A DNA stretch of 64,000 bases. It comes from Protoeuglena noctilucae. Taxonomy: Eukaryota. Under the pieces are notes generated by a model. The model did not search any database, had not been told where the DNA came from, and saw nothing but the letters and a program-made list of their open reading frames with translations. The stretch covers positions 496,001 to 560,000 of the forward strand of contig OY253676.1 of the NCBI GenBank assembly GCA_958009085.1, in the 5' to 3' direction. Positions 1 through 39,948 of this stretch are shown one piece after another. A program made the translations under genes and the position numbers. The first letter of the stretch is position 1; the number at the start of each line of letters is the position of its first letter.

Positions 1-319
1 GGGCACCCTCTTGCCCCTTCACCGGCAATAAGTCCTTTCGACAGGCCGCAGATCGCGTCACTCTGACACATGAGTTCACATATGAGCGTGTTCCGGACCC
101 TGCCAGAGCCGCGCGTCGTTCTTGTTCTTTTGAAAGACACTGCCATGCAGATGGGCTGGATATCTTCGACCGAGAATGGTAGAACAGAAGGACAGGGTCG
201 TGCTAGGTCCGCTTTCGATGAACAACAAAGATGAGCTCGGGCAGTGACACCCGTCGCCCATGAGACAGACAGATTACAAGGAGAGCGAAGGAATGGAGAA
301 CGGCTGAGCTGATGCATCG

Positions 320-1792
320 TCACTTGGCTCTTGCCTTTCGCCACTTGTACACCGTGACGCCCCCCACTCGGCCCCCCTCGTCCTCGTATGGACTCTTCTC
401 CCCGCCCACCACGATCTTCCGCACTCCCTTCCCACCCTTGCCCGACAGCTTCTTCTGGAGCTCCAGCCTGCAAGGAGCCACGCGCTGGCTGAGCTCAGCA
501 GCTGTGCTCACATATCGGCAGCAGCTCCGACGGCCATGCATGGCCATCCATGCTACGCTGCCCTTCTGCTCAATAGCAACCCGACAATCCGCGTGTGACG
601 GGCCAATGCAGACGCAACGCGCTTCCTACACACAGCTGGCCCCTCGCCTGTCCGCCACAGCACGGATCTTGTCGTGGGTCTCCGCACGCTGTGCCAGCTC
701 CCGGTACGAAGCAAGCCGGTGACGCTCTGCCTTTTTCACCACGGCGGGCGCTGCGGGTCCCCCCGCGAGGAACTTGGGGTCCTCTAGCTGGCTCGACCTG
801 CGTGCGACGGCACACGGCAGGTGGCAGGTGGATGGCACATGGTCATGAGCGCGCGGCCCGCGCTGCCCATGGATCCAACGGGCCACGAGAGAGCTGACAT
901 CGTCTGCGCACCTGACGCGGTTGAACGCCCGGGACAGGAGGGCCTCTGGAGTGTCGAAGTGCTGGGAGGGGTCGAACTTGCGGGCCTCTTCCGCGGAATC
1001 CTGCGCACCAAGACACGCAGAGGGCCTTGATATCGAATGCCCAGCACGATTCGCGTTCAACCCCTCCGCCCGGTCCGCATCCGGCAGCTCACCACGAAGA
1101 CGGTGTGCTGGGACGGGGCCTGCACCCCCACAAAGTGCAGGTTTCGTTGCAGGCGCTCAATCTTCTTCATCTCTTGACCCGACTTGAGGCTCAAGTAGTT
1201 GACGTCTTGTGTCCGCATCAACGCGAGCTGCTCCTGCGCGCGTGGGGCCACGGCAAAAAGCCTTTGCGTGGGCGTCGCACCAGCGCGTCGCGCCCTGGGC
1301 CCCCTTCCCGCCGCCGCGCACCTGGGTGTACTTCTTAGCCTCCGCAGAGTTGACGACGTGAATCCCTTCCTTCGTCCGGCTCTTCTCCATCGCGAAATAG
1401 AACTCGTCGGGGTTGCGCTGCTCGGCCTTCTCCTGCGCGTGGACGGACAGGCGGGGGTCACGCACCTCGTGCCCGCACTCCTGATGCAGTAGAGGCGCAC
1501 ATGCCAGGCGCTGGGCTCGCCTTGAGCTTCTTGATGGCGTCATCCTTTTTGTGGAAGTCCCGAGCACGCTGCACGTAGTCCTTGTGCTTCTCCAGCAGGC
1601 CCAGCTTGCTCCGCCATCCCCTGCATCCAAGCACGCGAAAGCTGCATTGCTCGGGCCCAGGACAAAGCGGCTCTCGCTCGGCGCAGTCCGCACACGCACG
1701 ACTCACGGCTGCGCTCGCTCCTTGTGCGTCCTCCGCTTCACCACCTTGCTGAACGCCCTCTCGGACTTCAGCTTCATCGGACGCTGCCCCAT
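320..1792 (-). CDS. UTP11: U3 snoRNA-associated protein 11 (SSU processome), about 7 exons
   Basis: Spliced peptide VKRRTHKERAQP|..RSKLGLLEKHKDYVQRARDFHKK..|EKAEQRNPDEFYFAM..LMRTQDVNYL..HFDTPEALLSRAFNR..YKWRKARAK matches Utp11 motifs. Confidence 0.93.
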
Positions 1793-2135
1793 GGCGCGCG
1801 TCGTCCGGCCCAGCAGGGCCGAAATGGGAGCCGGGGCTGCCGGTTGGAAAACGTGACAATCCTGCCCCGGGCGGGATAGATGAGGCCTCCTTCCGATCCC
1901 CAAGCTTACCCAGTTGCTACAGGAACACGCGTCTGGCCTCGGCGTCGCGCGAAACGCTCCTTCTCTGCCCAGTCGTCCGTCAGACCAGACAGACAGGAGC
2001 CGCCGGTCGTCGGCTGCATCCACCGGGGGTGGCGCTCCGTGTCCAAATACAAGTCCGGTCCTGTCTCTCGTAGGACGGCTATCCGCCCTGCCGTCTCGCG
2101 CCGCCCTGGCATCGCGGGGGCCAAGCGGCGGGACG

Positions 2136-5100
2136 ATGTCGGCGTCCTCTGTACCGGCATCTCTCTTGGTGGGAGATGTCGCGAGGGTGCGGGTCTCGAG
2201 GGGATCGGCGGGGGCCCGGGGGCTGGTCGTCTGCTCGGCCGAGCGCCCTGGGGTCCCCGAGAGGCAGATACCCCGCAGGCCTCTGTGGAAGTCGCGGGGG
2301 ATGAAGGTCGCGGTGCTGGCGGTGAGGACAGGGGGCGAGGGGTTGATCGGAGGGCGTGGTCGGGCAGCGCGGGCGTCTACAGCTATTTGCCGTCCTCCTG
2401 GGGCCGATGGCCCGCTGGCTGCTGCAGACAGCGAAGGTACTGGATGAAGATACCGCTTGAGGCCCGACCTGTCGCCGGCGAACTCCCCGCTGACGAAAAC
2501 GCGAGCGCTGCGCTGGTGCGACCTTTATCGATGGCATCCTCCCCGATGGGCCTCTCTCGCCGCAGGCAACCCTGACCGTTGCATCGGCTGCAGTCCCAGT
2601 GGATGTGGGAGGAAGCGGAGGCGCCGGCCCAGCGGGCGGTGGCGGCGGGGGGGGTGGCGGCGGGGGCGGGTGGGGGCTCATCCGGCGGGCGCTTCTTGCG
2701 CGGGCGGACGAAAAGTGAGGGCGCTCTGCTGGCCATTAGATGACTGTTATCTCCCCATCCAGCGTGTTTCGTGCCCCGCCGCGATGCCGCGCGCGAGGCC
2801 CCGGCACTGACGCTGCGCGCCCCTTCCCATGCTCCGCAGCGACGATGACGATGAGGAGGAGGAGGAGGAGGTCGCGGAGGAGGACGAGGAATTTGAAGAA
2901 GAAGTCGCGGAGGAGGAGGAGGGCGGGGCCGGGGACGGGGAGGAGGACCACCCGGACGACGTGGCAGCGGCGGGCTTTGCGGGGGAGCATGCGCTGGACG
3001 TGGCGAGCGGGGACTTCTTCTGCTACGAGATGCGCGCGGAGGGCCTGCCGCGCGAGGACGGCGTCCCGACGGAGGAGGAGCTCTTCGCGAACCTCAAGTG
3101 CCAGCCGGGCTTCAAGTGCACGCGCCAGGAGCTCTCGGAGGACCTCCGCACGCTCATGGGCCTGGGCCTGTTCGAGGACGTGACGGCGACGGTGGACCCG
3201 ATCCCGGGCACGGCCAAGTCCAAGCTGACGGTCCGCTTCGACCAGAAGATTTGGCCAAGGATGCAGAGCTTCAAGGTCAACGGGGCGACGGTGCTGCCGC
3301 CCGAGGTGGAGGAGCGGGTCATGGAGGAGCAGGGCAAGACGGAGGGGCCGAGCAACATGCGGACGCTCGCGCTGATCAAGAACGTGGTCGAGAAGTGGTA
3401 CCAGGACCGAGGCTACCCCTTCTCCTACATCCAGACGTACGACGGGATGGACACCGGTGAGGGGCGCGGGGTCGGCGTGGCGGGAAGCGGTGCACGATCG
3501 AGACCACGGACGGCGTCCTGCAGATGTAGACAGCTGGCATGGGTGGGGGTGTGAGCGGGCTCCGCAGGGCGCGAGCGTGCGTGTGTCTCTGAGAGTGCCT
3601 CGGTCCCCCTGCGCAGGCCATGTGGTGGCGAACGTGGTGGAGGGTCGCGTGAGCAAGGTCAACCTGGTGTTCCAGGACGAGGCGGGCAACACGATCAAGG
3701 GCGGTGGCGAGACGGACCCGGCCATCATCACGCGCGAGCTGCCGTTCAAGGAGGGCATGCTCTACAGCCAGGAGGACGCCCGCCGCGCGCTGCGGGACAT
3801 CTTCGCGACCAACCTGTTTGAGAACGTGCAGATCGCGCCGCGCCAGAACCCCAAGAACGAGCGGGAGGTCGAGGTGGACGTGCTCCTGAAGGAGCGGCCC
3901 GCCAAGGTGACTACGCGGGACGCTTGCGGCAGAGCTGGTGCTGGATGCGCGGGGGGGCGGGCCTCTTGATTGTGCCACCCCTCTGCGCGCCGACTGTGCG
4001 CTCGGGTGTCGCGGTCAGCTGCCAGCGAGCGCCAGGACCGTCGCCCTCGCGCGCAGTCGGCGGAGGTGGAGGCCGAATGGCAGCTGGCGCCCAACGACCG
4101 CGGGTGGCCCATGCTGGTGTCGATCGTGCCGGGCGGCTCCGTCACGTTCGAGCACCGCAACCTCCAGGGCGTCGGGAACCAGATCTCCGCGTCCATCAAC
4201 ACCCAGAACTTCCTGCAGCCCCAGGACGACCTCGGCTTCAAGGCGAGACCGCAGATGCTGTGGCGCCGCTGTTTGACGTGCCACGCGCCGGCGACCGTCT
4301 CTCCGCATCGTAGCGCTGCGTGCGGCTGGGTCATTGCCTGCCTCGGCTGTGCTCTGCAGAGAGCCAGCACGCAAGTTGTAACCGCCGATGGGGTCAGAGT
4401 CACAGAGTCCCGGCATACACACAACTGACACATGCAACTCCCCGTGTCACGCAGGTGGATTACAAGATGCCGTTCCTCAAGGGCCCCGGCGACCCCCGCC
4501 GCACGTCCCTGAGCGTGTCCGCGTTTAACGCACGCAAGCTCTCGCCCGTGTTCACGGCCGGGCCCGGGATGGACGCCACGGAGGTCCCCTCGGTGTGGGT
4601 GGACCGCACGGGGGCCAAGATCTCGGTGCACGAGACGTACACGCGGCATTCGTACGGCCAGCTGTCGCTGCTGCTCCAGGACGTGACCACCTTCGACGAC
4701 CAGGGCCAGCCCATCGCCACCGCCAGCCGCGCTGGACCGTCGTTCGGCCGGGGCCCAGACGGGGCGCCCCCCACGACCCTGTCCGGCACGCACCGCGACC
4801 GCACGGCCACCCTGCAGGCCACCATCGTCCGCGACGCGACCTACTTCGTCAACGGCGCCCTCGTGGGCCCCCGGGATGTGTTCAAGGTTGACCAGGGCCT
4901 CGGCATCGGGCCCGGGGCGCCCCTCTTCAACCGCTTCGAGGCCTCCTCGTCACGGTGAGCGGCGCGCGGCGAGGGCGCGGCGCTAGCCTGGGCCGCGTGC
5001 GCAGGGGAGGTGCTGAGCTATCTGGTGAGACATCCGTCGACCCCCTCGTCACCCCCCCAGGTTCATCCCGCTGACTCAGCCACGGAAGGGGACGACGCAG

Positions 5101-5490
5101 ATGCCGACGGTGCTCGTGGTGCACGGGAAGCTGGGCCACACGGTGGGCGACCTGGCGGGGTACGACCTGTACCCGCTGGGGGGCCCGTACTCGGTGCGGG
5201 GCTACACGCACGGCGAGCTGGGGGCGTGCCGGTCGTACGCCGAGATGGCGGCCGAGGTGCGGATGCAGGTGCCCCGCACGCGGCACCAGGCGTACGCCTT
5301 TGTGGAGCACGGCACGGACCTGGGCTCGGCGGCCTTCGTCAAGGGCAACCCGACGCAGTACTTCAAGAAGGCCGGGTCGGGGTCCTCGTACGGCGCGGGC
5401 ATCAAGATCGGCGCCGTGCGCGCGGAGTGGGCCAAGGACTGCAACATGGGGCGCGGCACGTGGTACCTTAAGTTCGGCGAGCGGTTCTGA
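2136..5490 (+). CDS. TOC75: Chloroplast outer-envelope translocon channel Toc75 (Omp85/BamA family)
   Basis: Transit-like N-terminus, poly-Gly tract, POTRA-like segments (EDLRTLMGLGLFEDV; ALRDIFATNLFENVQI), barrel motifs FEHRNLQG and LGGPYSVRGY, C-terminus YLKFGERF; first exon boundary uncertain. Confidence 0.9.
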
Positions 5491-5766
5491 GGCGTTCGCG
5501 CGTTTTCCACGCACGCTGAGCCTCGCGGCTCAGCCTCGTTTTTGCTCGCTCGCTCGTAAGGCAACCGTGCCCGCGCTTGAGGCCTGCGCGCTGCCTGAAG
5601 GTGTCGTGGGCGTCAGACAGCGCGTGCCGCTCATCTGCTCTGGGGCGTGCCGGCCTTGGTCGGTCTCGCCAAGTTGCCACCTCAGCCATTCAACGCTCAC
5701 CTCCCTGTCACGGAGAACTCGCCCGGCTCTCTGAATTCCATTGCTTCTTTGAGACCAGCGGGAAGG

Positions 5767-6823
5767 ATGCTCGCGCGGATCGGGGGGGAGCTTGCGCGGC
5801 AGGCGTCTGGCCTGTTCGCATCTGCCGCGACTCCCGCGGTGGCCGTGGCCGGCCGGCGTCTCTATCACGAGCGGGTGAGGTGCCCCGGCCCAGCGACGGG
5901 CGGGTAAGGGGGCGCGCTATCCCGCCCGGCATTCGCGATGCTCGAGCGTCTCTTCGAACGCGTGACCTGCGTGTCCGGAGGCCGCGCTTGCGGGCCTCGC
6001 GGCGTAGGTGGGGCGGATGGTTTCGGGTGCCCCCGCGTCCGGACGATCTCCGCTCGCACCCCGCATCCCATCGGTCTGATGTTGGTGCCGTTGCGCTTCA
6101 GCGGGGACCGCGTTCGCCGCCTCCCGCGCGCTTCCGGGGCGCGAGGACCCCACGCTTCCATCGCGCACCGCATCGGACTTTACGCCCGCTCCGAGGCCTC
6201 TGAAACTTTGCAGCCCCCATGACGCATCCCTCGTGACAGTATCTTCCGTTCACCGCGCCTGCAGGTCATTGACCACTACGAGAAGCCTCGCAACGTGGGG
6301 TCCTTCGACAAGGCGGACCCCAATGTGGGCACGGGCCTCGTCGGCGCGCCGGGTGAGCTTTCTGGCCCGCTGTCCCCATGCTTGCATCCGGTTTTGTGAG
6401 CCGGAGTCTCCACTCGCAGCTCCGGTCCCGGGGGCCGGCGGAAACTCTTGCGGAAGCGTGCATGACCCGTCTGTGCCTCTCCCTCGGCCCGCAGCGTGTG
6501 GGGATGTGATGAAGCTTCAGATCAAGGTGGACGAGAACGGCAACATTGTGGACTCGTGCTTTAAGACGTTCGGGTGCGGGTCCGCAATTGCCTCCTCGTC
6601 GGTGGCCACCGAGTGGGTCAAGGGGCGGACGCTCGACGACGTCTTAACCATCAAAAACCAGGACATCGCCAAGCACCTGAGCCTCCCGCCGGTGAAGCTC
6701 CACTGCTCGATGCTCGCGGAGGACGCCATCAAGGCGGCCGTGCGCGACATCCAGGCCAAGCGGGCTGCGGCCAAGGGCGGGGACGCTGGGACCGCGGCTG
6801 AGGCCTCGGCGGCCACTGCATGA
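5767..6823 (+). CDS. ISU1: Mitochondrial Fe-S cluster scaffold IscU/ISU1, 3 exons
   Basis: Presequence then [66 protein letters not shown]. Confidence 0.97.
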
Positions 6824-7084
6824 GCGCGGGATGCTCGCCATCGCGCCCGCTCCTTTTCACGAGCCCTAGCCCAGGAGGGCTGGGCGAGGGCTCGCATCTC
6901 TTTCCTTTTCTTCAACGCACTTGGACATGGCTTGGTCGCCGCCTCGCTTCTCTCATCACTCTAGCGGCGGCAGCTGCACTGAAGACTCCATTTGCTACCT
7001 CAGTGGCTCTGGCAGCACGCGGCTCAAGCACGTCTCGCACGTCGGGTCCTCCCGACACGCGTGCCAGGGCGCGTCTGCCCACCA

Positions 7085-10000
7085 TCAGCTGAACTTGCCC
7101 ATGGCCTCCTTCAGCGCGTCGAAGATGAGGTCCGCACGCGCCACCTGCTCGATGCCCCCGCCCCGGTTCTTCACCTTGTCCGGGTGCACCACCAACAGCG
7201 CCCGGTGGTACACCTTCTTGACCTTGCTCTCATCGATCAGGTCCGCCATCGACACTGCAGCGCAAGGGGGCGGCGAAGGCGTCCATGGGGCGCTGGCGAC
7301 CGACCCCGGGACCCCAGTCGGGCCTGGAAGCCACGCTTGCTTTTACAGGTTTCGAACGTCACCCAAATCGCAGCCCTTGGTGTAAGGTCACACATGCGAA
7401 GAAACCCAAGGCAAAGGACTGCCATGGGTATCGACATTGCCCATCCTGCCCTGCACCCCACCCCCCACGCCTCCACCCCAACCCCTCGCAAGCGCGCACC
7501 TTGCTTCCACTCGCACTCGGGCCACAGGACGCGGTCCATCGTAGCCAGCAGCGTGCGCAGGTTCCCCTTCGAAGACGCCCGCCACGACTCCACCTCGGCC
7601 TTCAGCTCCTTCTTCCGCTCGTACGCCTGCTCCTTCTCCTCTGCCGCCTGACGCTCCCGCTCCTGCGCAGGAAACAGCAGCGGGGATGGAGTCAGTGCCC
7701 CCGGGCGCCTCGAAACGACCGACCGGCGCACGGGCTTACGGCAGCCGAACCCAGATCGACCGTCCACACAGCGGACCCACGCCGTCTAAGCCGGCGCCTA
7801 GGACCACTGCGTGTTGGCCCCACAAACTCCCTTCGCCGCGACTGCGGGGACCCGCGCGCAGGGTCTCCGCCCGGGCACTCGCCTGTTGCTCCCGCAGCGC
7901 CTTCTCCATGGCCGCCTTCTTTTGTGCGATGCGCGCGATGCGCAGGCGGCGCCGCTCCTCGGGCTCGCCCTCCACCTCCACGTCCTCCTCGTCCACTGCG
8001 GACACGATTGCACGGTGAACGTCAGTTACACGTCGAAGAAGGAAAGGGGCGACGAGCGGCTTCCCTCTCTCGCAAGCGGCCTGTGCGACAAAAAGCGGTG
8101 TCAGTCCGCAGCCGCACTCACGTTTGATCCCGTCGCCCCCAGAACCCCCGAACATGTCGAGCAGGCCACCCCCGGCGCCGAACCCAGCGGATGCCGCTGC
8201 CGGCGCCGCTGCGGGCGCGGGGCCCATGTCGAACAGGTCCCCCACAGGTTGGGGGCTCGGGCGCGCCGCCGGCCGTGGTGCCGGCGCCTGGTTGAAGATG
8301 TCCATCTCCGGCTGGGCCGGCGGGGTCGGCGCGGCGGGCGACGCGGCCGCCGCGGCGCTCCGGGACGGCGTGAAGTCCCCGCCCAGCAAGTCGTGCTCCT
8401 CCGAGGCCCCCGCGGTCGCTGCCGTGTGGGGCGACGGCGGCGCGGCTGCCTCGCCTCGCGCGGACCCCTCTCGCTGGGCCGTGCCCGACCCCGGGACCCC
8501 CTGGCTCGGCTCTCGGCTGCCCGGCACCGTCGGGGCCCGCGGCGGGTGCGTCGCCGACGCCTCGCGAGACACGGGGGTGGAGTGGGAGGCCCCGTGGGGG
8601 GACGTCGGTCGCCGCGCGGCCGCCTCCGGAGCCGCCCGCGGGTGCAGCGGCGAGGGCTGCGGGGCCTGCGGCGCGGCCGCTTGGGGCGCGGTGCGTTGCT
8701 GCGCGGCGCGAGCGCGGAAGGGCGCCATGGCGGCGTCGATGACCTCGGGCGTGACGTCCTCCACGGTCGGCGGTAAGAGCACGTGGCCGTGGGCCGGGCG
8801 AGGGATGACGCCGCCCGAGACGGTGATCGTGTCCAGCACCAGCAGCACCGCGTCGCGCTGCGAGGCATCCATCGCGCTGCGGGCGCACGCAGGAGGGGCA
8901 CGCGCTGAGGGCAGCGGGGCGCGCTCCAGCGGGGCGCGCTCCCTGCCGCCAACCTGGCAAAGCCCCTCACTTGATGGCCGCCTTTCGGTCCCACTCGGGC
9001 AGCAAGAACAGAGAGACGCCCTCAACCACGAAGTAAGGGTCCACGTCGAGCACGGGCGGGCTGGTCAGGGCCCTCGACCGCTGACGCTCGGCCACGTTCT
9101 GGTCCATGTGCGTCCGGAACTCCGCAGCCATCTGTTTCGCGGACTCGGCGACCTTCTTGCCGAAGTCGCGCGCCTTGCCCAAAATGCCGCGGAGGCCCCC
9201 GCCGCCACTGCAAACGCCAAACCACTCCTCGGGTCACGCGCAGCTGGCAGGTAGTATCACGGCAGCAGCCCGCCCGGCCTGCAGCCCCTCACCCCTGCTG
9301 CGCGCCGCCGCGCAAGAAGCTGGGCTCCGAGGGCACATGGCTGGCGTCGGCGGGGTGGCCGGCCCACAGCCCCGGCCCGTGCCCGGGATGCGCGAAGGCC
9401 GGCCCCGCGGACCGAGCCGCCTCTGCGCGCCGGTCCTCCGCGTCAGGCATCCACGCCGGGGCGCCCTGCGGCGCCTCTGGCGTCGCTGACCGAGGCACAG
9501 TCCTGGACCCTTGGGAGCCTTCGCTGCCGTCCACGCCCCACCGCTGACTGACCGGGCTCGGCTCGCCGGTGCTGCTCACGGGGCGCTGCGGCCGCGCTCC
9601 TTCCAACGAACCCCGCCCGGTCATGCCCTCTGCGCCTGCCGCGCTCGCGTAGACCTGCCCCGCGTGCCCCACGGGGCTGTGCACCTGTGCCGGCTCCGTC
9701 GAGCGCGGCGCGGGTGCTGGCGCCGGCGCAGGAGCGGGGGCCGCGAAGCCCGCGAGGAGGTCGTCGCCGGCGTCGGGGGCGTGGTTGGCCACATGTGCTG
9801 GCGCCGGGGCTGCCGTGCTGGGGATGAATCCCAGGCCCAACGGGTCGTCCGCGGCGGCAGCGCCGGTGGGTGCGGGACCGGAGACGGAGATGCCCGAGAA
9901 GGGGTCGTGGAGGCCGCCCGCGCCGGGAGAAGGCGCGCCAAAAGCATCCACTCCGAGCAACGGGTTGACGGCTGCATTGCGGAGGCCCGAGGGCCCCGGC

Positions 10001-10573
10001 GCGGGCGGCGCGGGACGGGCGGAGCCGCCCTGCCCGCCCACGTTGGGGTCCGAGGACGTGTGCGCGTGCCGCGGCCCTGAAGGGTGGTGGCCGTGGGGCG
10101 AGCTCGTCGCGGCGTTCTGCCCCGACCCGCTCCCCGACGGCCTCCCCTCCGTCATCGAGCCGCCGATCGACGCCAGGTCGTCGAGCGGTGACAGGGACGC
10201 GGCAGAGGCGACACGGGGGGTCCCGTTCGGGGTGGCGCCCGCCGACGGAGCGCTGGGGCGGGAGCTGGTAGGGGCCGTCCCCGGCGTGCGCCCCGCGTTC
10301 ATCGGGGCAGGCTTGCTCTGCGGCCGGAGGAGCGCGTGGATGTCAAAGGAGATCCCGCGACGAGTCGGGGCCCCGTGGGCGGGCCCAATTCCCGGCTTGC
10401 GGGACCCTCCCGGGGTCGACGCAAGGGGCAGACGAAACTCGAGCGACGGGATCGACGCTCACCTTGCTGGGTGTCCCCAGGTCAGCAAAAGCGTCCGACA
10501 GACCCGCCCGTGCCGCGGGCCCCTGTCCTCCGGTGCCAGGCCGGCCACCGCCCGCAGCTTTCATTCCCACCAT
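7085..10573 (-). CDS. Auxilin-like protein with C-terminal J-domain
   Basis: C-terminal KGNLRTLLATMDRVLWPECEWKQ|VSMADLIDESKVKKVYHRALLVVHPDK (HPD motif); long Pro/Ala-rich N-terminus with DLL/DLF-type motifs; start and joining of 5' exons inferred. Confidence 0.82.
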
Positions 10574-11450
10574 CGGGCCCTGTGTTGCAGGGTGACGGGG
10601 TGACGCGTGATCCACGAGAGCGTGCCAAGCCCATGCGTGACGCAAACACGCGACGTTCCGAGCGCAAGGGAGCGTCGGAAGCTCCAAAAGGCCCTTTGAG
10701 CGCGGTAGTTCAGGGCGCGCCAAGTTCCAAGTCCAAGAGCAGGCCCCTCGCCTTCTGGGGCGTGCCACCGCCCGTTCCCAGACCTCCTAGACCAGAGAAC
10801 GCATCGTTCGCCGTCTTCATCATCCCCTATTGATGAGCGTTGCGAAGGGTCGCCCTGGCCCTCCCCACGGGACCACGCGGGGGGCGATGCAGGCGAGAAC
10901 CTGCAACAACTTCTGCCCAATTACTGCCCACTGTCTCGATTAACCGCTCAAGGCGGTGCAGCGCGCGCAGCGAGCGGGCGTTACAGCTCGGCGCCCGTTT
11001 GTTGCCTAGCTCGACAACTACAGCGCCCGACGGAGGAACGGGCACTGTATCGGCACAAGCATTGCGCACAGGGCGCCAAGCGGACTGCCGTTTGGCCACT
11101 TGAGCGGTCAGACGGGGGCGCCAGATCGGTGTACCGGTCTCGCGCGCGCGGAGAGGTCCCCAACGCGCAGTCACCGCCGCATTCGGTGTGCGACCTGAAC
11201 TACTAGTCGCAGGTGGGTGCGGAGGGGCTGGCTTGCAGCGGAGCGTGGGGATTGTCGCTGCCTGCAATTCCTGCCAATGGCGCGGCTGCACGTCTCTGGC
11301 TGGACTCTTTGGCGTTCGTCGCGCGGGCGTGCGGGGCCAGTGCGGCACGCCTTCGCCCGTGGCCCGCGGCAGCTCAAACGCGCACATCCGTCGCACCCCC
11401 TCGCTCGACGCAGCCACCTGCAGCGCCGGTTCCTGCTCGACGCATTCCTG

Positions 11451-11811
11451 ATGCTCCCCGCACTGCTGGCGACGTTCGCGAGAGGCCGTCGCGTTGTACC
11501 CGCGAAGGGCTGGAAGGTCATCACAACCAAGCGTGCGGCCGGCGCCGTCCGCGGATTCTACAAGGGGAAAGGCGCCCGCTCCACCGGCGCGGTACGCTCT
11601 CCGCTGAACACCCTCCCGGGCGCGCGCGCTCGCCCGCGGCGGCGCTGGCGCGCCTCCACGCCCCGTTGCCGCCGACCCGCCCCCGCAGCTCGACTCCCGC
11701 GGCGAATTCCGCGTCCTGCCCCAGCGGCTGCCCGACTTTGTCGTCCCGGACCTCACAGGGTTCCCGCTGAAGCCTTACGTGGACGCCAACGTGCGCCCCG
11801 GCACCAAGTAG
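11451..11811 (+). CDS. MRPL41: Mitochondrial ribosomal protein mL41 (87 aa; intron 11592-11688)
   Basis: ITTKRA..GFYKGKGARSTG|..RGEFRV..LPDFVVPDLTGFPLKPYV is the mL41 (MRP-L27) signature. Confidence 0.9.
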
Positions 11812-11820
11812 CAGCCCAGG

Positions 11821-13022
11821 ATGGCCTCCCCGGCCCTCGACCCGGGGCCCCAGGCTTCGGCCTCGGCCCCCTCCACCCACGGGACGCGATGGCCGCCTCC
11901 GGGGGAGCCCGTCGCCGGGAAGCCCGGCACCAGCGGCACGGAGACGGCGTCGACGCGAGGGTCGAGCCCGGCCCCCAGCGCGGGGTGCCAGCCCGGCCTC
12001 GTCTGCTCCACGCCGTCGCTGGCCGCCCACGCCGGCGGCGACGGAGCGTTCGGACCGTCGGACATCCGGGGGCGCCAGCAGGGCGCGTCGGATGCGTCCG
12101 CTGCCGGGACGTCGGGCGCGTTCCCTGGGCCGGCCTCACGTGGCCGGTACTTCTCGCGCGAGCGGTGGCTCCCGCTCATCACATCCTGCCTGGAACGCAT
12201 GGCGGGCGTCAACACGGAGCGACTGTCTGACTTCCACGCCCCGGGTCCCACGGAGTCATCGACGGCCCACCCCGCGCCGCCCGCCGTGCCCGTGGCCCCC
12301 GCGGCAGCCCTCCAGGCTTTGCGTCCCGGCGACAGCGTCTTCCATGGGCCCAGGGAGGCCCCTCTGTCTGTGGCGGACTACCTGGACCGGCTCTACACCT
12401 ACTTCCAGTGCAACCCCGCTGCGCTCTTCGCGGCGCTGTGCTACATCCGGCGCGCCTCCCTCTCCGACCCGTACCTCCAAGTAACTCCTCTCACAGTCCA
12501 CAGGCAAGCGCGGTCTTGGGAGCTGCAGTCCCGTCTCGGCTGGGCGCGCGTGCCTTGCCAGGAATCATGGCCTGCCCTGGGCTCCCGGTTGCGACTCCCT
12601 TGACCCGCAGGCTGCTCCTCGCTGCGCTCACGGTCGGCGCCAAGTTCTTAGACGACCGCTTCTTGTCAAACGCATACTACGCGCGGGTGGGGGGGGTCAC
12701 GCTCCGGGAGCTGAACGCGATGGAGGCCGAGCTGCTGCGGAGGCTCGGGTGGAGAGCCACGGTCAGGTGCGAGGCCTGTGTGCTGGGGCCGCCTGGAGGT
12801 GCCGCGGGTCACGGTGCTACGCGCCGCAACGCGGGTGGCCCTCAGTTGGCAGTGCCAAACACCACGTCTCCCTTGGTCGAGGAATGCAGGGAAGAGGACG
12901 TGCTTCAAATTATGGCCATCCTGGAGATGGACGGCTCTCTTACTGACAACCCATTCGGCGTGGGGTCCGGTTCCGATGAAGAGGGCCGCGCTGCCGCAGA
13001 TGCAGAGGCGCGCGAGCTGTGA
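11821..13022 (+). CDS. PHO80-like cyclin (plant cyclin P/U family)
   Basis: FHGPREAPLSVADYLDRLYTYFQCNP..ALCYIRR..VTPLTVHR|LLLAALTVGAKFLDDRFLSNAYYARVGGVTLRELNAME. Confidence 0.9.
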
Positions 13023-13096
13023 GGTCTCGACAACCCTCCACGACAACCCTCCACAAATCTCCATGTCTTTCTTGTTCTAGCCTTCCCACCACACTA

Positions 13097-13118
13097 CCCC
13101 CCCCCCCCCCCCCCCCCC
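13097..13118. repeat. C22 homopolymer (G22 on minus strand) between convergent stop codons
   Basis: Directly visible run of 22 C. Confidence 0.95.
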
Positions 13119-13139
13119 GGACGCGGCGAGCAGGCCGCG

Positions 13140-13740
13140 TTAGTCCACACGATACTTGGCGAACAGGTTGTCAGGATGCGTCATGGCCTTGAACTCGAGG
13201 CTGTTCCCGCTGGGGTCCCGGAAGAACATGGTCCACTGCTCCCCCGGGGCTCCGACGAAGCGGATGTGGGGCTCAATGACGAAAGGCACGCCCGCGTCCT
13301 TGACCCGCTTGGCCAGCGCGTGGAATTGGTCGACCGACAGGGCCGCCCCGAAGTGCGGGACGGGGACCGCGTCGCCGTCCACCGCGTTCTCGTTGCTGGT
13401 GGCCTGGTAGCCCACCACGAGGTGCGCGACGATCTGATGGCCGTAGAAGTTAAAGTCCTGCCACGTCGAAGCCGAGCGGCCCTGGACAACAGCGAGGGAT
13501 TCGCCGTGTCTGAGGAGTTGGCGCTTGCAATGCAGCAGCTGCAGACGCTGGGTCACCTCCGTGCACCCCAGGACGTTCACGTAGAACAGCCGGGCTTCCT
13601 CCACGTCGCGAACGGGGAAAGCGAGGTGGAACGCGGCTGCAGGGGAGGCATCGTGAGGTCTTCATCGCGACCTGGCTCTAACTTCCCATGAAAAGCCTCC
13701 AAGACTCTGTGAAATGGATCTCACGCCATTGCAGCTTCAT
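13140..13740 (-). CDS. VOC / glyoxalase-bleomycin resistance family protein, 3 exons
   Basis: MKLQWP|AFHLAFPVRDVEEARLFYVNVLGCTE|GRSASTWQDFNFYGHQIVAHL..VPVPHFG..GEQWTMFFRDPSGNSLEFK. Confidence 0.88.
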
Positions 13741-29250: not shown

Positions 29251-32200
29251 TCAATCGCTCCCATCAGACGCGTACTCTGAAATGGAGGAGTCCAGCCCCC
29301 GATGCGCCCCGCTGCGCAGCTGATAGCTCGCAATCGTCCTCAGCGCCCCGGAACCCGCGCGGCCCTCGCCGCCCTCACCACCCCCCACGCCCCTCCCCAC
29401 GCGCCGGCGCAGCGTGCCCGACGACCCATGCTCCCGTATCGTCCTCGCTGCGCCCTGCCGCGTGGCGCCCCACGCCCCGCCCAGCTCTCCCGAGCCATCC
29501 TCAGGTGCTCTGAGGGTACGACCAACAGAGCCCCTGGCCCCCACACGCGCCCCACGAGATGACCCCGCCCCCTCCGCCTCCCCCGTCCGCCCCAGCGCCA
29601 CACGGATGCCTGGCCCGAGTGGACTGACGCTCCCCGCCGACCCCGTTCCCCAGGAGGGCCACAGTTCGACCGCATCCCCGTCTCCGTCCAATGGGTGCGT
29701 GTCAGGAAAGCTACCCACACCGTCGGCCACACCGTCGCTGCCGGCCCCGGGGAACGTCCTCTCGGAGAGATGCCGCAACGGCCAAGGCCAGCTGCCCCAG
29801 CCCCGACGGCCCCCGTGACCGAGAGCCGCGGCGATGCCAGGGCCCAGGACGCGCGGGGCTGGCCCTGCGTCCTGCGAGTGGCCACCCTCGCCCGCTCGGC
29901 CCTCTCCCTCGGGGGCTTGCGGGGCCGAGGGCACTGCGCTCAAGTCCAGCATCTGCATGGCCCTGCGGACGCCCTGCGCTGAGCTGGGCGCTGCGGTGTC
30001 GGGAACGGGACCGGTCCCGCCCCGCACAGGCACCCGCACTTCGCTGACCACCGAGCCGCCCCCGGGCGCGCCGTCCCGCCGCCGGGCCTGCAGGCGCACC
30101 AGCCACGAGGCCTCCTGCCACCCGACGCGGCTCGCAGTCTGATCGCCCGCCGCAGCGTCACTCGTCGACGGCCCCGCCCCGTCACCCCCAGCGTCGCTGT
30201 GGCGTTCCCGCCGCCCTCGCGCCCCCCGCCGTCGCATCGCTACCCCTCCCTGACTTGACCCCTCGCGTCCCCTGGCACCCAACTCCGCCCCCGAGCTCCC
30301 CGCGTCCTCCCCGCTCTCCCACTCGTCTGCGTCGCCGCCCGACACCGCCGCGGCCGCCCGCGCGAGCAAACTACGCAGCCTGCCCTGCAAGGCTTCCCCG
30401 CCCCTTGGCCTCTCCACCAACTGCGTCCTCGTCTGCCTAGATGACCCCGCAGCCCTGCCCCCGTCCCCACCGTCACCCGTGCCGTCCGCGCCCTGAGCTT
30501 CGCCCCGCCCTCGCCCCGCGCCCTCGCTGCGGTCGCTCCCCGAGGACTCGCCGTCCGCGTCCACCGCTGGCCCATCCGTCAGCCCCTCTGCCATCGTCTG
30601 CGCCTCCTGCATCTCTCGCAAAAGCCGGTCCAGCATCCCCAGTCGATCCAGGGCCGTCTGAAGCGTCGCGAGCGGGTCGTCCTGCCCACTCTGCGATCCC
30701 TCCGCGGCCTGCAAGGAGGGCAGCGCAACAGTCGAGGAGAGCCCAGGACACGGCTTGGCTTCGAGTCTCCATGGCGCATGGTGTGCGGGTGGCGTGGCAG
30801 CTTGCAAAGGGACATACGGCAGGGCACTATTCCACCTGCATGGAAGCCAGGCCCGTCCTAGACGTGCTGGCGTGCCTCACCTGCGGCCCTCTTGCTCGCA
30901 GGGGTGAGCCTCGCGTCTGCACCACGAGTTGGATCCCCCACAACACCTTGTGCCCGAAGCGCCAGGCCGTGCGAGCCACTCGCGTGACCCACCAGGACCG
31001 GGGCTCGCGCCCAGCGCCCAAAGCACCGCGGCCGTCACGGCCCCTCCCACCCGCGCGATCGCTGTCACCAGCGGTGGCCGCGTCACGCAAGGCGCCCTCT
31101 GCACTCAAATCGCCCTCCCATTCAGGGGAATCTGCCGGGCCCGCTTCTTCCGTGGCCATAGACACAAAGCGGGAGGACTCCTGGACAGCGATGGCTGCGA
31201 TGCCGAGAGTGGAGGCAAGGGCCAGGGCGGCGGGGAGCCCAGCCACGAATGCGACAGGGAGGGCGGACAGCGACAGCCAATGCAGCGCCACCGCGGCGCG
31301 GTCGAGGGTGGAGCCCGGGGGCGCGTGGGGCGTGGCGAGGGCGAAGAGGCCGCACTGGACGGACTGGGGGCAGGGCGTGGGGGCGTCAGGTCGTTGGGCG
31401 ATCCAATGACATTGGTGCTGGCGGTGGCGTGTGGGCATATGATGGCATCACGCCAGCACCACTCACCGTGACGATGGCCGCCTTGGCCAGGCTCCACCAG
31501 GACACCCGGACGACGCGCGCCAGCAGCGCAGCAGCCCCGACGGCGTTCAGCCGCGCCCCGAAGCGCCGTACGCGCAGGGCCGCGCGTCGGGCCAGGGCTT
31601 TGCCTTCGTCGCTCCCTAAGGGGTGCTCGACGGCGGCCCAGGCCTCCGACAGCACCAGCGCGCTCATCTGCGCGCCCGCCACGAAGAGGACCGCGACCAG
31701 GCCCGGCACCCATCGGTAGAAAGCCGACGGGGCATACCCCATATGGAGCGCGTCGAGCAAGTGGATGACCAACGCATCGAGAACGGCCATCCACACGTGC
31801 CTCGCCAGGGGCGGGTCGTAGATGCCGCGCGCGATGTCCGCCTCACGCGCTGAGGTGGGTAGGGGAGTGCGGGCGGGTCAAGCAACAGCGCAGCATCGCG
31901 GGGTAGCGAGAGCCTGTGGCGCTGGCGGCGAACGCAGACATCGCCCCATTTGCCTTCTGCACAGACATTGCGGCTAGTCTCGGCAGACGTGCCTGCAGGC
32001 ATTGATCAGCAAGCCCCCCGAGCCAGTTGGCATCTCACCCACGCCAGCGGCACTTCGCGTCTCGGCTCCCTCCTGCCTCAGAGCCTCCTCCAGGTCGTAG
32101 GCGCAGCCCACATAGACGCGCCCGAACGCGTGGATGGCCGCCTCGACGACGCCGGCGTGGAAGCGGGGCAGCAGCAGCACGCACAGCACGTCCGAGGCGC

Positions 32201-38251: not shown

Positions 38252-39948
38252 ATGACTACGCTGGCGTCGTCGTGCAGCTGTGCCGGGACTCGCGTCGCGG
38301 CACGGGGTCCACGGGGTGCGGGGCCAGGTGAGTGAACGTGCCGGATGGTAGCTCCGCCGATCCATCGCGAGTCCGCGACCCGCGCTGACCCCGCAGTTCT
38401 GGGCGAGAACTCATTGCATCAACGCATCGTTTCGGCCTCATGATGGGCCCTCAATCTCCCTGCTGGCGCAGCGCTGACGTGGTTGGCCACGCGCCCGGGC
38501 CACTCTCCCCACCGCGTCCTCCGCCCGTCGCGGTGGAGCCCGCTTGCGACGCTTCCATCGACTCCCGTCACACGCTGCGACGCCGCGCGGCATGAGGTGC
38601 GGCTCCTCGCGCGCGGTGGCCCGCACGATCCGAGTTGGAGAATTCCAGCCAACCAGCGTCGGCCCGCGCGATCTCTTCGCAGGCATGGCGCAGCGCTGCG
38701 AAGCCGCAGTCGGGGGCTCCTTGGGCGCGTCTTCCAGTGGCTCTCCTCGCGGGCGTGGTTGGGTTGGCTGCTCTCTTCGGCGCACCCAACGCGGCCCTCG
38801 CCGCGCGCTCGGGCGGCCGAGTTGGGGGCTCCAGCTTCTCCTCCCGCGGCTCCTCTTCTCCCTCTTACTCCTACTCGGGCGGCAAGCACTCGGCCGGCAT
38901 GGGTGCGGGCTGGGGCAGCTCGCGCATGGCGCCCTCCACCACCGTCATCCGCACAGGCACGAGCGTCGGGTTCTTCCCCATCGCGCCCACCTACGGGTTT
39001 TACGGGGGCGGCTTCTCGTTCATGTCCACCGCCACGACCCTCATTATCGTCGCGGCACTGGTCTTCGTGGCTGCCCAGGTGAGGCGTAGGCCCATGGAGA
39101 CAGCGTGGAGCGTTTCTTGCGCATCATTGCTACGGCGTTGTGGTAAACTCTATCCTGCTCGCATCCCTGGTACCCCCAGGCCTTCAACAGCGGCGGCATG
39201 GGCATGGCGGACGACGAGGGTTACTTTGGGTCGGAGCGCGTGACGGTGGCCAAGGTCCAGCTGGGCCTGATTGCGGAGGGACGGCGCATGCAGCGCGACC
39301 TGGAGCGCATCGCGGGGCGCGCCGACACGAGCGACTCGGACGGGTTGCAGTTTGTACTCCAGGAGACCGTGCTGAACCTGCTGCGGCGGCCGGAGGTGTG
39401 GGTGTACGGGTACTCGGAGGGCAAGTCCGTGACCGGGGCGGAGCGGGGCGAGGAGGAGTACAACCGGCTGTCCATGTCGGAGCGGGGCAAGTTCGAAGTA
39501 AGGAGCGGGGAGTGGGTTAGGGTAGGGAATGGCGCGTGGTTGCGTGAGAGTCAGGGCTGACACCATGACACCATGCAAGTGGTGCCTAGCAGCAAGTGGT
39601 GCTTAGCCGCTGGGGTGGGAGGGGGCCGACAGTGGCTTCGCGCCTGCTACCCTGCAGAAGGAGACGTTTGTCAACTACGGCGGCCGCACGCGCAAGGCGG
39701 AGATGGACGGCAACTCGGAGGCGGTGGACGAGTTAATCGTCATCACCATCCTGGTGGCGTACGAGGGCGGGGTCAAGCTGAACAAGTGCCGCGATAGGGA
39801 GGAGGTTCGCGCGACGCTCGAGACCCTCGGGGGCCTCCGCGCGGACCAGATTCTGGCAGTCGAGGTGCTGTGGACGCCGTCGGACGACAAGGACGCCTTC
39901 ACGCGCAACGACATCATCCAGGACTACCCGCAGCTCAACACGCTCTAG
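38252..39948 (+). CDS. FLAP1: DUF1517 protein, FLAP1-like (fluctuating-light acclimation), plastid
   Basis: ALAARSGGRVGGSSFS, VAKVQLGL..MQRDLERIAGRADTS..LQETVLNLLR, SMSERGKFE|KETFVN, ILAVEVLWTP..DYPQLNTL; transit exons start 38252 (inferred). Confidence 0.85.

What the first reader, a model, noticed from the sequence alone, without database searches (positions are those of the whole stretch)
11451..13022. Candidate nuclear bicistronic unit: mitoribosomal mL41 followed by a PHO80-type cyclin
Seen: the mL41 stop (TAG, 11809-11811) is only 9 nt from the first ATG of the cyclin ORF (11821), leaving no intergenic room for a 3' UTR and promoter. The spliced mL41 ORF has no further ATG in any frame. 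Its start context is weak (CTG-ATG-C) while the cyclin context is strong (AGG-ATG-G). Established: green algae have bicistronic nuclear mRNAs with short AUG-poor first ORFs, attributed to leaky scanning. Inference: one mRNA couples a mitoribosome subunit to a cyclin P/U. I do not know this pairing to be described.
Basis: partly seen in the sequence, partly recalled or inferred. Interest (0 to 1): 0.85.

Follow-up and report, generated by a model that had tools for sequence, protein, structure and literature searches.

The report
Probable two-protein mRNA in a picoalga
A small mitochondrial ribosomal protein gene and a PHO80-type cyclin gene lie nine bases apart in a GC-rich marine green alga and appear in environmental RNA as one spliced message, which would be a new example of the two-protein messengers already known from other green algae.

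Summary
A two-exon, 87-aa mL41 gene (ATG 11451, TAG 11809-11811) ends 9 nt before ATG 11821 of a 323-aa PHO80-type cyclin. In the spliced RNA these are the first and second ATGs.

New evidence comes from marine metatranscriptome contigs. Three of four runs, all from one study, hold spliced contigs that bridge both ORFs. Two of these are 1.4-kb contigs carrying a 5'UTR exon, both ORFs and the 3'UTR. The 5'UTR intron removes the only other upstream ATG (11277). ATG 12199 is an unlikely cyclin start, because a conserved block lies upstream of it and a relative has Asp at that position.

The best reading is a bicistronic mRNA translated by leaky scanning (about 0.65). This is a new member of a kind already known in Chlamydomonas, Chromochloris and Auxenochlorella.

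Three limits apply:
- Short-read contigs cannot prove a single molecule.
- The lack of ATGs is statistically weak (P about 0.13).
- The start-codon contexts are not calibrated for this organism.

The pairing looks incidental. None of 60 metagenomic mL41 loci has a cyclin downstream, although none is a close relative. In one other alga, mL41 sits 2 nt before a homoserine kinase instead. I found no published report of this pair.

The parts
11177..11212 (+). 5' non-coding exon. The true transcription start is at or upstream of about 11177-11182. No ATG lies here, nor anywhere from 10890 to 11212.
   Evidence: X3 record 12 carries 31 letters and X2 record 7 carries 18 letters upstream of the joint 11207>11409 (cut +5 = 11212|11414). 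ATG list.
11213..11413 (+). 5'UTR intron (201 nt, GT..AG). It contains ATG 11277, which is in frame with mL41 in unspliced DNA and is removed by splicing.
   Evidence: table 5 (joint in X2 and X3; only X3 meets the tool's 31-letter rule); splice-site check; (ORF 11277..12230).
11414..11450 (+). Second part of the 5'UTR (37 nt). The total 5'UTR is at least 73 nt.
11451..11591 (+). mL41 exon 1 coding part (codons 1-47). Start context is CTG ATG C.
   Evidence: The N-terminus aligns with the start Met of homologues.
11592..11688 (+). mL41 intron (97 nt, GT..AG, no ATG).
   Evidence: joint 11590>11688 (cut +1) in X2, X3 and X4.
11689..11811 (+). mL41 exon 2 coding part (codons 48-87 plus TAG 11809-11811).
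   Evidence: Pfam PF09809, E 6e-8. The whole protein (P0001) matches solved mL41 chains, for example 9evs_1j at 7e-14 and 6xyw_AG at 2e-13.
11812..11820 (+). Inter-ORF spacer (9 nt, CAGCCCAGG). The mL41 TAG is in frame with the cyclin ATG.
11821..12503 (+). Cyclin exon 1 coding part (start context AGG ATG G). It holds a low-complexity N-terminal 106 aa and then the first half of the cyclin box.
   Evidence: GC3 is 0.91 in frame over 11821-12138. A block conserved with relative P0004 starts upstream of ATG 12199.
12504..12610 (+). Cyclin intron 1 (107 nt, GC..AG).
   Evidence: joint 12500>12608 (5 letters ambiguous; at +3 it reads GC..AG) in X2, X3 and X4.. The spliced product is identical to P0005.
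12611..12766 (+). Cyclin exon 2 (second half of the cyclin box).
   Evidence: Pfam PF08613, E 1e-12.
12767..12889 (+). Cyclin intron 2 (123 nt, GT..AG).
   Evidence: joint 12763>12887 (cut +3) in X2, X3 and X4.
12890..13083 (+). Cyclin exon 3 (coding to TGA 13020-13022) and the 3'UTR. Contigs run on about 35 nt into the poly-C tract at 13084-13128.
   Evidence: records 7, 12 and 18.

Best explanation
The locus is one transcription unit of about 1.4 kb after splicing. It is driven from the short gap (130 nt or less) shared with a divergent minus-strand neighbour and ends opposite a convergent glyoxalase-family gene.

The mature mRNA has a 5'UTR of at least 73 nt built from two exons. Then come the 87-codon mL41 ORF, a 9-nt spacer and the 323-codon PHO80-type cyclin ORF.

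Scanning 40S subunits meet the mL41 AUG first. That AUG has a pyrimidine at -3 and no G at +4. A share of subunits initiate there and make the mitoribosomal protein. The rest scan on through 270 nt that contain no other AUG and initiate at the cyclin AUG, which has A at -3 and G at +4. This is leaky scanning.

Shown:
- the gene models and the identity of both products;
- spliced RNA contigs that bridge both ORFs;
- removal of the upstream ATG by a 5'UTR intron;
- the order of AUGs in the RNA;
- the position of the cyclin start upstream of 12139.

Inferred:
- that the bridging contigs represent single molecules;
- that both ORFs are translated from them;
- that the mechanism is leaky scanning rather than reinitiation.

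The pairing itself is probably a lineage-specific accident of genome compaction. A tiny Met-free ORF is tolerated in a 5' leader. It is probably not a dedicated regulatory link between mitochondrial translation and this cyclin.
For: 1. RNA. X2 record 7 (1404 nt) and X3 record 12 (1413 nt) each run 5' exon | 11409-11590 | 11688-12500 | 12608-12763 | 12887-13083 with 0 other letters. X4 record 17 (698 nt) runs 11433-11590 | 11688-12227. So 3 of 4 runs have intron-free contigs across the stop/start junction.
2. Proteins P0001 (87 aa) and P0005 (323 aa) are identical to the spliced models. Each is recorded on '2 contigs, longest 2069'. This suggests, but does not prove, a further 2069-nt transcript contig carrying both.
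3. AUG order. Genomic ATGs on the + strand are at 10887, 11277 (inside the 5'UTR intron), 11451 and 11821. The spliced model has only 11451 before 11821.
4. Cyclin start. The conserved block YFSRERW.PLIT.CLER precedes Met127 (ATG 12199), and that Met is Asp in the 58-59% identical relative P0004. GC3 is 0.86-0.97 across 11821-12138 in frame, against about 0.67-0.81 in all three positions of introns.
5. There is no room for separate control regions. The upstream neighbour's RNA contig reaches 11043-11046 on the other strand. Its intron reads GC..AG only on the minus strand. The downstream minus-strand glyoxalase gene's contig starts at 13129.
6. Fit to the published profile (passages of PMC11892635). 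There, ORF1 medians are 291-357 nt (here 264), inter-ORF medians are 40 and 183 nt (here 9), and 5'UTR medians are 54-83 nt (here at least 73). That study also reports a weak ORF1 context and AUG depletion before ORF2.
7. An independent parallel. Metagenome locus L060 has a three-exon mL41 (ATG 2156, C at -3). Its TAG is followed after 2 nt by the ATG (G at -3, G at +4) of a homoserine kinase ORF. No ATG lies in the 432 genomic nt between the two starts.
Against: - Assembled short-read contigs can fuse overlapping transcripts. The tool states that 'a contig across two genes shows no single transcript'.
- All four runs belong to one study.
- X1 shows only unspliced, DNA-like pieces.
- The ATG-free run is not significant on its own. 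P(0) is 0.13 by shuffling and 0.75 given the protein. In GC-matched 349-nt windows, 26% have 2 or fewer ATGs.
- 6 of 21 mL41 homologues are Met-free anyway.
- 'Weak' and 'strong' contexts follow the general eukaryotic rule only. A rough set of 12 first-ATG candidates from the window gave no usable consensus: at -3, C 6, G 4, A 1, T 1.
- No conservation of the pair was found. There were 0 cyclin hits in 60 mL41 loci by tblastn. There were also 0 among the 115 downstream ORFs that I sent to Pfam, from 10 of those loci.
- Compact picoalgal genomes may tolerate overlapping monocistronic transcripts. This is my own knowledge and was not tested here.
- Two introns lie downstream of the ORF1 stop codon. 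In many eukaryotes that would expose such an mRNA to nonsense-mediated decay (established knowledge, not tested).
Confidence: 0.65

Rival explanations
1. There are two overlapping monocistronic mRNAs. The cyclin has its own transcription start inside the mL41 gene, in exon 2, the intron or exon 1. mL41 mRNAs are polyadenylated inside the cyclin coding region. The assembler merged the overlapping reads into one contig.
For: - The tool's own caveat on contigs.
- Contigs cannot show starts, ends or isoform ratios.
- Statistical support for AUG depletion is weak.
- No synteny support was found.
Against: - With a 9-nt spacer, each 'monocistronic' RNA would still have to contain part of the other ORF.
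- No loose end or break at the junction appears in X2 or X3 (tables 7 and 8). The only loose ends near it, in X4 at 11590 and 12022, are single contigs whose other part is absent from the window.
- The one recognisable intergenic gap lies upstream of the shared 5' exon.
- Even the introns between 11451 and 11821 lack ATG.
Confidence: 0.22
2. Alternative splicing separates the two products. Skipping the exon at 11414-11591 (donor 11212 joined to acceptor 11689) would remove the mL41 AUG. That would leave an mRNA whose first AUG is the cyclin's, alongside the full form that serves mainly mL41.
For: mL41 exon 2 has no ATG in any frame, so the skipped form would be a clean cyclin mRNA. The splice sites are canonical. 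This is inference only.
Against: No joint 11212>11689 is listed in any of the 4 runs (table 5). However, contigs drop rare variants.
Confidence: 0.06
3. One mRNA is made, but ORF2 is reached by termination-reinitiation after translation of mL41, not by leaky scanning.
For: The 9-nt stop-to-start distance would suit coupled termination-reinitiation. The absence of AUGs is also compatible with reinitiation. PMC11892635 notes that an added AUG lowers ORF2 expression under either model (passage seen).
Against: ORF1 is 87 codons. The same paper cites the negative relation between upstream-ORF length and reinitiation. It shows that ORF1 context strength tunes ORF2 expression in Auxenochlorella, which favours leaky scanning (passages). 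Nothing was tested in this organism.
Confidence: 0.07

Closest known systems
Nuclear bi- and polycistronic loci of green algae. Sources: Gallaher et al. 2021, PMC7896298 (I read section 12, passages, and term searches of 7 supplements). Duenas et al. 2025, PMC11892635, and its preprint PMC11291117 (I read section 5, passages, and term searches of 6 supplements).
   Same: Two unrelated conserved ORFs lie on one strand with a very short spacer. ORF1 is short with a poor start context, no AUG occurs before ORF2, the 5'UTR is short, and ORF2 has introns. Leaky scanning is the demonstrated mechanism in Auxenochlorella.
   Different: Those sets come from Iso-Seq in Chlamydomonas (87 loci, 35-36 of high confidence), Chromochloris (173) and Auxenochlorella (41-43). 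Micromonas and Ostreococcus were only queried for colinear orthologues. Here the host is a different, marine, GC-rich alga. The RNA evidence is short-read metatranscriptome contigs only. The terms cyclin, L41, L27, MRPL, PHO80, PF09809 and PF08613 found no such pair in either paper or its supplements. ORFs that carry no description there cannot be excluded.
Known bicistrons with a mitoribosomal ORF1: MRPL63 (Cre16.g684950, Chlamydomonas) and MRPL23/uL23m (UTEX250_B12.40975, Auxenochlorella). Both are rows in the supplements of PMC11291117.
   Same: A small mitochondrial ribosomal protein is the first ORF of a two-ORF transcript.
   Different: The mitoribosomal protein is a different one and so are the partners. 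The MRPL63 locus was marked not high-confidence there (no Ribo-seq reads, frame-shifted in field strains).
The CDC26-TTM3 bicistron of land plants and Chlamydomonas, as mentioned in PMC11291117 section 5.
   Same: A cell-cycle regulator shares an mRNA with an unrelated protein, and ORF1 is tiny.
   Different: There the cell-cycle component is ORF1 and the pair is deeply conserved. Here the cyclin is ORF2 and I found no conservation.
Earlier AI notes of this scan on Ostreococcus pairs, such as mL53 followed after 5 nt by a RING-CH ligase (e1-560439, e1-560419) and PET100-DGK (e1-562461).
   Same: Small mitochondrial proteins sit directly upstream of unrelated genes in picoalgae and are read as bicistrons.
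   Different: These are unchecked notes on other genomes and other pairs. Those reports had no RNA evidence, whereas this locus has bridging spliced contigs.

Membership tests
Green-algal nuclear bicistronic locus (sensu Gallaher 2021 / Duenas 2025) | Two or more conserved protein-coding ORFs on the same strand, not overlapping, with a short inter-ORF distance | tested here: met
   mL41 (PF09809) and the cyclin (PF08613) lie 9 nt apart.
Green-algal nuclear bicistronic locus (sensu Gallaher 2021 / Duenas 2025) | Both ORFs found together, and only together, on full-length transcripts (Iso-Seq or EST) | tested here: inconclusive
   Spliced short-read contigs bridge both ORFs in 3 of 4 runs of one study.
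Green-algal nuclear bicistronic locus (sensu Gallaher 2021 / Duenas 2025) | Short ORF1 and short 5'UTR | tested here: met
   ORF1 is 264 nt and the 5'UTR is at least 73 nt. Published medians are 291-357 nt and 54-83 nt.
Green-algal nuclear bicistronic locus (sensu Gallaher 2021 / Duenas 2025) | Weaker start context at ORF1 than at ORF2 | tested here: inconclusive
   The positions are C(-3)/C(+4) against A(-3)/G(+4). The organism's own consensus could not be derived.
Green-algal nuclear bicistronic locus (sensu Gallaher 2021 / Duenas 2025) | Depletion of AUG between the ORF1 start and the ORF2 start | tested here: met
   0 ATGs in 270 nt against 1.94 expected. The statistical weight is low: P 0.13, or 0.75 given the protein.
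Green-algal nuclear bicistronic locus (sensu Gallaher 2021 / Duenas 2025) | Both ORFs translated (Ribo-seq, proteomics or in vitro translation) | not testable with these tools
   No such data are within reach.
Green-algal nuclear bicistronic locus (sensu Gallaher 2021 / Duenas 2025) | Colinearity of the pair in other species (used in those papers as supporting evidence, not as a requirement) | tested here: inconclusive
   0 of 60 metagenomic mL41 loci have a cyclin hit. 0 of 115 downstream ORFs from 10 loci have one either. The best locus is only 45-63% identical. The scan pattern could not match the closest relative's fragment P0077.
Mitoribosomal protein mL41 (Pfam MRP-L27, PF09809) | Profile match above the curated cutoff, and similarity to mL41 chains in solved mitoribosomes over most of the length | tested here: met
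   Exon 2 scores 33 bits against a cutoff of 25. P0001 residues 4-79 match 9evs_1j (mL41, 90 aa, 7e-14) and Arabidopsis At5g40080 in 6xyw (2e-13). 14 chain sequences match in all.
PHO80-like cyclin (Pfam Cyclin, PF08613; the plant P/U-type cyclins belong here by recall) | Profile match above the cutoff covering the cyclin box, and similarity to solved PHO80 | tested here: met
   P0005 scores 88.5 bits against a cutoff of 21, over residues 157-276. PHO80 chain 2pk9_B matches at 9.6e-15. The nearest named protein is a Brassica product with PF08613. Assignment to plant P/U subgroups by phylogeny was not tested.

The most novel reading that the evidence does not exclude
The mL41 stop codon is in frame with the cyclin ORF (TAG, then CAG CCC AGG, then ATG). 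Its 3' context, UAG-CAG-CCC, matches 5 of 6 positions of the plant-virus readthrough motif UAG-CAR-YYA. I recall that motif from memory and did not test it. So one mRNA might yield three products: mL41, the cyclin by leaky scanning, and a low-level mL41-cyclin fusion. The fusion would carry the mL41 N-terminus and might therefore enter mitochondria. The evidence does not exclude this. An in-frame arrangement has a 1-in-3 chance by accident.
Probability: 0.04. Interest if true: 0.75.

Novelty: new member of a known kind. Interest (0 to 1): 0.4.

Why it matters
If long reads confirm it, this would be a transcript-backed bicistron found de novo in a marine GC-rich picoalga. The two key papers only checked such algae for colinear orthologues of loci found elsewhere.

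Together with locus L060 (mL41 directly upstream of homoserine kinase), it suggests a pattern. The tiny, often Met-free mL41 gene may be captured repeatedly as the first ORF in front of unrelated genes.

That has two consequences. Annotation pipelines tend to drop one ORF or mis-start the second; the 197-aa call P0006 starting at Met127 is an example. It also bears on how the dosage of small mitochondrial proteins is set relative to their mRNA partners.

It does not open a new mechanism.

Tried and rejected
- **Whole genome:** none is held, so I could make no genome-wide spacing statistics and could not count mL41 copies.
- **Earlier notes of this scan:** there are none for this genome, and no look-alike of the cyclin.
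- **Scans for cyclin relatives:** Viral contigs and genome contigs gave no confirmed hit.
- **Scans for mL41 relatives:** Viral contigs gave none. Genome contigs gave 2 short matches of 12-19 residues in bacterial records, which I take as chance.
- **Fused mL41-cyclin gene models:** I scanned 11 mL41 homologues of 161-325 aa. All have only PF09809 and none has a cyclin domain.
- **Start-context calibration:** 12 candidate ORF starts from the window gave no usable consensus.
- **Wide ATG-paucity test:** the 933-nt stretch 10888-11820 holds only 2 ATGs. However, 934-nt windows with 2 or fewer ATGs also occur at starts 9891-9899 and 29835-29837 (12 starts on the + strand, 0 on the - strand). One of these is next door in a 75% GC region. 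I therefore do not use this as evidence.
- **TGTAA poly(A) signal** (recalled from other green algae): none on the + strand in 11000-13300, and only 10 (+) and 9 (-) in the whole window. This is uninformative because the organism's signal is unknown.
- **X4 loose ends** at 11590 and 12022: their other parts are absent from the window at up to 3 mismatches. 12022 is not preceded by AG. They are single contigs and remain unexplained.
- **X1:** this run holds only unspliced pieces across all four introns. I read it as DNA or pre-mRNA, not as an internal start.
- **'Next ATG after the mL41 stop' survey:** run over the 60 loci, it is confounded by introns. Five resulting ORFs had no Pfam family.
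- **Third homologue search:** the full cyclin found only P0004 as a close relative.
- **Not run:** no complex or structure prediction, because no binding claim is made.
Full report
**What is in the sequence.**

The + strand at 11451-13022 holds two genes.

- The first is a two-exon gene of 87 codons. It runs from ATG 11451 through exon 1 to 11591, a GT..AG intron at 11592-11688, and exon 2 at 11689-11811 ending in TAG.
  - Exon 2 matches Pfam MRP-L27 (PF09809, E 6e-8, 33 bits against a cutoff of 25).
  - The whole product matches mL41 chains of solved mitoribosomes over residues 4-79. Examples are 9evs_1j at 7e-14 and Arabidopsis At5g40080 in 6xyw at 2e-13. In all, 14 distinct chain sequences match.
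  - Its N-terminus aligns with the initiator Met of homologues of 85-125 aa, so 11451 is a sensible start.
- Nine bases later (11812-11820), ATG 11821 opens a three-exon ORF of 323 codons. Its exons are 11821-12503, 12611-12766 and 12890-13022, with one GC..AG intron and one GT..AG intron.
  - It matches the PHO80-type cyclin family PF08613 (88.5 bits against a cutoff of 21).
  - It matches solved PHO80 (2pk9_B, 9.6e-15).
- Both spliced models are letter-for-letter identical to proteins already in the public protein collection, P0001 and P0005.

**RNA evidence.**

The stretch is held at 99% identity or more by marine metatranscriptome runs (13 runs listed, 9 hold part of it, 5 of those on record as RNA, 3 studies). 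I laid four RNA runs, all from one study, on 10600-13700.

- X2 record 7 (1404 nt) and X3 record 12 (1413 nt) are single contigs with no mismatches. Each joins a short 5' exon ending at 11212, then 11414-11591, 11689-12503, 12611-12766 and 12890-13083.
- X4 record 17 (698 nt) joins 11433-11591 to 11689-12227.
- So 3 of 4 runs hold intron-free RNA contigs that cross from mL41 into the cyclin.
- The fourth run, X1, holds only five low-depth pieces that retain every intron. I read these as DNA or pre-mRNA.

The contigs also reveal a 201-nt 5'UTR intron (11213-11413, GT..AG). It is seen in X3 with 31 letters on the short side and in X2 with 18, which is below the tool's 31-letter rule.

- This intron removes ATG 11277, the only other ATG between 10887 and 11451. 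In unspliced DNA that ATG is in frame with mL41.
- In the mature RNA, mL41's AUG is therefore the first AUG and the cyclin's is the second.
- P0001 and P0005 are each recorded on '2 contigs, longest 2069'. This hints at one more transcript contig carrying both, but I could not fetch it.

**Caveat on the RNA evidence.** These are assembled short reads. The tool itself warns that a contig across two genes does not show a single transcript. Contigs give no starts, ends or isoform ratios.

**Where the cyclin starts.**

Three results speak against it.

- A 58-59% identical relative (P0004) has Asp at that Met.
- P0004 also shares a strongly conserved block (YFSRERW.PLIT.CLER) that lies upstream of 12199.
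- The region 11821-12138 has GC3 of 0.86-0.97 in the cyclin frame, like the confirmed exons. Introns are flat across the three codon positions.

ATG 11821 is the only in-frame ATG upstream of that block. The frame is closed just before it by mL41's own TAG.

**Surroundings.**

- The upstream neighbour is on the minus strand.
  - Minus-strand ORFs there have GC3 of 0.87-0.88.
  - Its 5' intron, about 10580-10751, reads GC..AG only on the minus strand.
  - Its RNA contigs reach 11043-11046.
  - That leaves at most about 130 nt before the shared 5' exon.
- Downstream, a minus-strand glyoxalase-family gene (PF00903) converges on the unit. Its contig starts at 13129, just beyond a poly-C tract.
- The two ORFs therefore share the only visible promoter gap and the only visible terminator gap.
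- The rest of the window has Toc75-like POTRA/Omp85 exons, DUF1517, a mitochondrial carrier and others. One of the best mL41 relatives is from a pedinophyte green alga.
- Together with about 66% GC and the marine RNA, this fits a marine green picoalga. The species is not established here.

**How strong are the leaky-scanning marks?**

- The 270 nt between the two start codons have 0 ATGs where base composition predicts 1.94.
- P(0) is 0.13 in 20,000 shuffles. It is 0.75 if one only resamples synonymous codons of this Met-free protein.
- 6 of 21 homologues are Met-free too.
- The 370-nt genomic ATG-to-ATG gap is among the longest 24 of 1651 gaps, or 1.5%.
- In GC-matched 349-nt windows, 26% have 2 or fewer ATGs.
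- A wider test looked striking at first. It does not hold up, because equally ATG-poor stretches occur next door and at about 29.8 kb.
- The ATG-free condition is thus necessary and is met, but it carries little weight on its own.
- The contexts differ in the expected direction by the general purine(-3)/G(+4) rule. I could not calibrate the rule for this organism.

Against the published profile, the locus fits on every count that I could measure. I saw passages of PMC11892635.

| Feature | Published medians | This locus |
|---|---|---|
| ORF1 length | 291-357 nt | 264 nt |
| Inter-ORF distance | 40 and 183 nt | 9 nt |
| 5'UTR length | 54-83 nt | at least 73 nt |

That study also reports weak ORF1 contexts and AUG depletion before ORF2.

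**Is the pairing conserved or known?**

- A profile of seven mL41 proteins (A2) found 60 mL41 loci in metagenome contigs (169 pattern matches, 65 confirmed, 60 distinct loci).
- tblastn with the cyclin (P0005) and with its relative (P0004) hit none of the 60 at E of 1e-3 or better.
- I computed 175 downstream same-strand ORFs from 20 of those loci. I sent 115 of them, from 10 loci chosen mainly for higher GC, to Pfam. None is a cyclin.
- None of these loci is a close relative. The best is 45-63% identical.
- The scan pattern could not match the closest fragment known, P0077 (83% identical over exon 2). That is because of one substitution inside the motif. Conservation in near relatives therefore remains open.

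One locus is telling. In L060 (GC 0.71), a three-exon mL41 starts at ATG 2156 with C at -3.

- It ends in a TAG that is followed after 2 nt by the ATG (G at -3, G at +4) of an ORF.
- That ORF has an N-terminal extension and then the start of homoserine kinase (NCBIfam NF002288, E 5.9e-11 over the 68 residues that the contig holds).
- No ATG lies in the 432 genomic nt between the two starts.

mL41 thus recurs as a tight upstream ORF with a different partner. This argues that the cyclin pairing is incidental rather than a dedicated regulatory link.

Literature checks:
- The two key papers list mitoribosomal ORF1s (MRPL63 and MRPL23/uL23m). Term searches of their text and of 13 supplementary files found no mL41, PF09809, PHO80 or cyclin partner.
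- Library searches for Micromonas or Mamiellophyceae with bi- or polycistronic, and for mL41/MRPL41 or P-type cyclin/PHO80 with those terms, found no report of this pair.
- ORFs listed in those supplements without a description could escape such searches.

**Verdict.**

The best-supported explanation (about 0.65) is a single spliced mRNA that encodes both proteins. The cyclin would be reached by ribosomes that scan past the mL41 AUG. That makes the locus a new member of the green-algal bicistron class, not a new mechanism.

The rivals are:
- overlapping monocistronic transcripts merged by assembly (about 0.22);
- exon skipping that removes the mL41 AUG (about 0.06, with no junction seen);
- reinitiation instead of leaky scanning on the same mRNA (about 0.07).

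One further curiosity is that the mL41 TAG is in frame with the cyclin ORF. A rare readthrough fusion therefore cannot be excluded (about 0.04).

Long-read cDNA and end mapping would settle the main question.

Noticed in passing
L060:2156-2948 (metagenome contig, GC 0.71): A three-exon mL41 (ATG 2156, TAG 2583-2585) is followed after 2 nt by ATG 2588 of an ORF. That ORF has an N-terminal extension and the N-terminus of homoserine kinase (NF002288, E 5.9e-11). No ATG lies between the two starts (432 nt). This is a second candidate bicistron with mL41 as ORF1 and a different partner. 'Homoserine' found only unrelated rows in the supplements of the two key papers.
   Followed up: partly
L008:4001-5506 (metagenome contig, GC 0.63): mL41 (ATG 4001, stop about 4471) is followed on the same strand by an F-box-like ORF (PF12937, E 5e-12) whose first ATG is at 4622. 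ATGs at 4442 and 4558 lie between them, so this pair is a less clean bicistron candidate.
   Followed up: partly
window 11809-11823: The mL41 TAG is in frame with the cyclin ATG (TAG CAG CCC AGG ATG). The 3' context resembles, in 5 of 6 positions, the UAG-CAR-YYA readthrough motif that I recall from plant viruses. I did not test this.
   Followed up: no
window 11277-11451: ATG 11277, inside the 5'UTR intron, is in frame with mL41 in unspliced RNA. Intron retention would add a 58-residue Arg-rich N-terminal extension to mL41 and put a new first AUG on the message.
   Followed up: no
window 12504-12610 (+) and about 10580-10751 (-): There are two GC..AG introns within 2 kb. One is in the cyclin. 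The other is in the 5' part of the minus-strand upstream neighbour. Both are supported by RNA joints.
   Followed up: partly
window 11590 and 12022 (run X4): Two single contigs match the window only up to 11590 (the exon 1 donor) or only from 12022. Each carries 255 or 198 other letters that are absent from the 64-kb window. They could be chimeras, a related strain, or unusual junctions. They remain unexplained.
   Followed up: partly
window 13099-13128: A poly-C run of about 30 nt separates the 3' ends of the convergent cyclin and glyoxalase-family genes. RNA contigs of both genes stop at it.
   Followed up: no
window 7088-10458 (-): The upstream neighbour has long low-complexity minus-strand ORFs and a C-terminal stretch with an HPD motif that looks J-domain-like by eye. 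Pfam reported no family at E of 1e-4 or better for 7088-7342.
   Followed up: no
window 2811-5487 (+), 39147-39945 (+): Toc75-like POTRA/Omp85 exons and a two-exon DUF1517 gene are present. They mark a plastid-bearing host of the green lineage.
   Followed up: no
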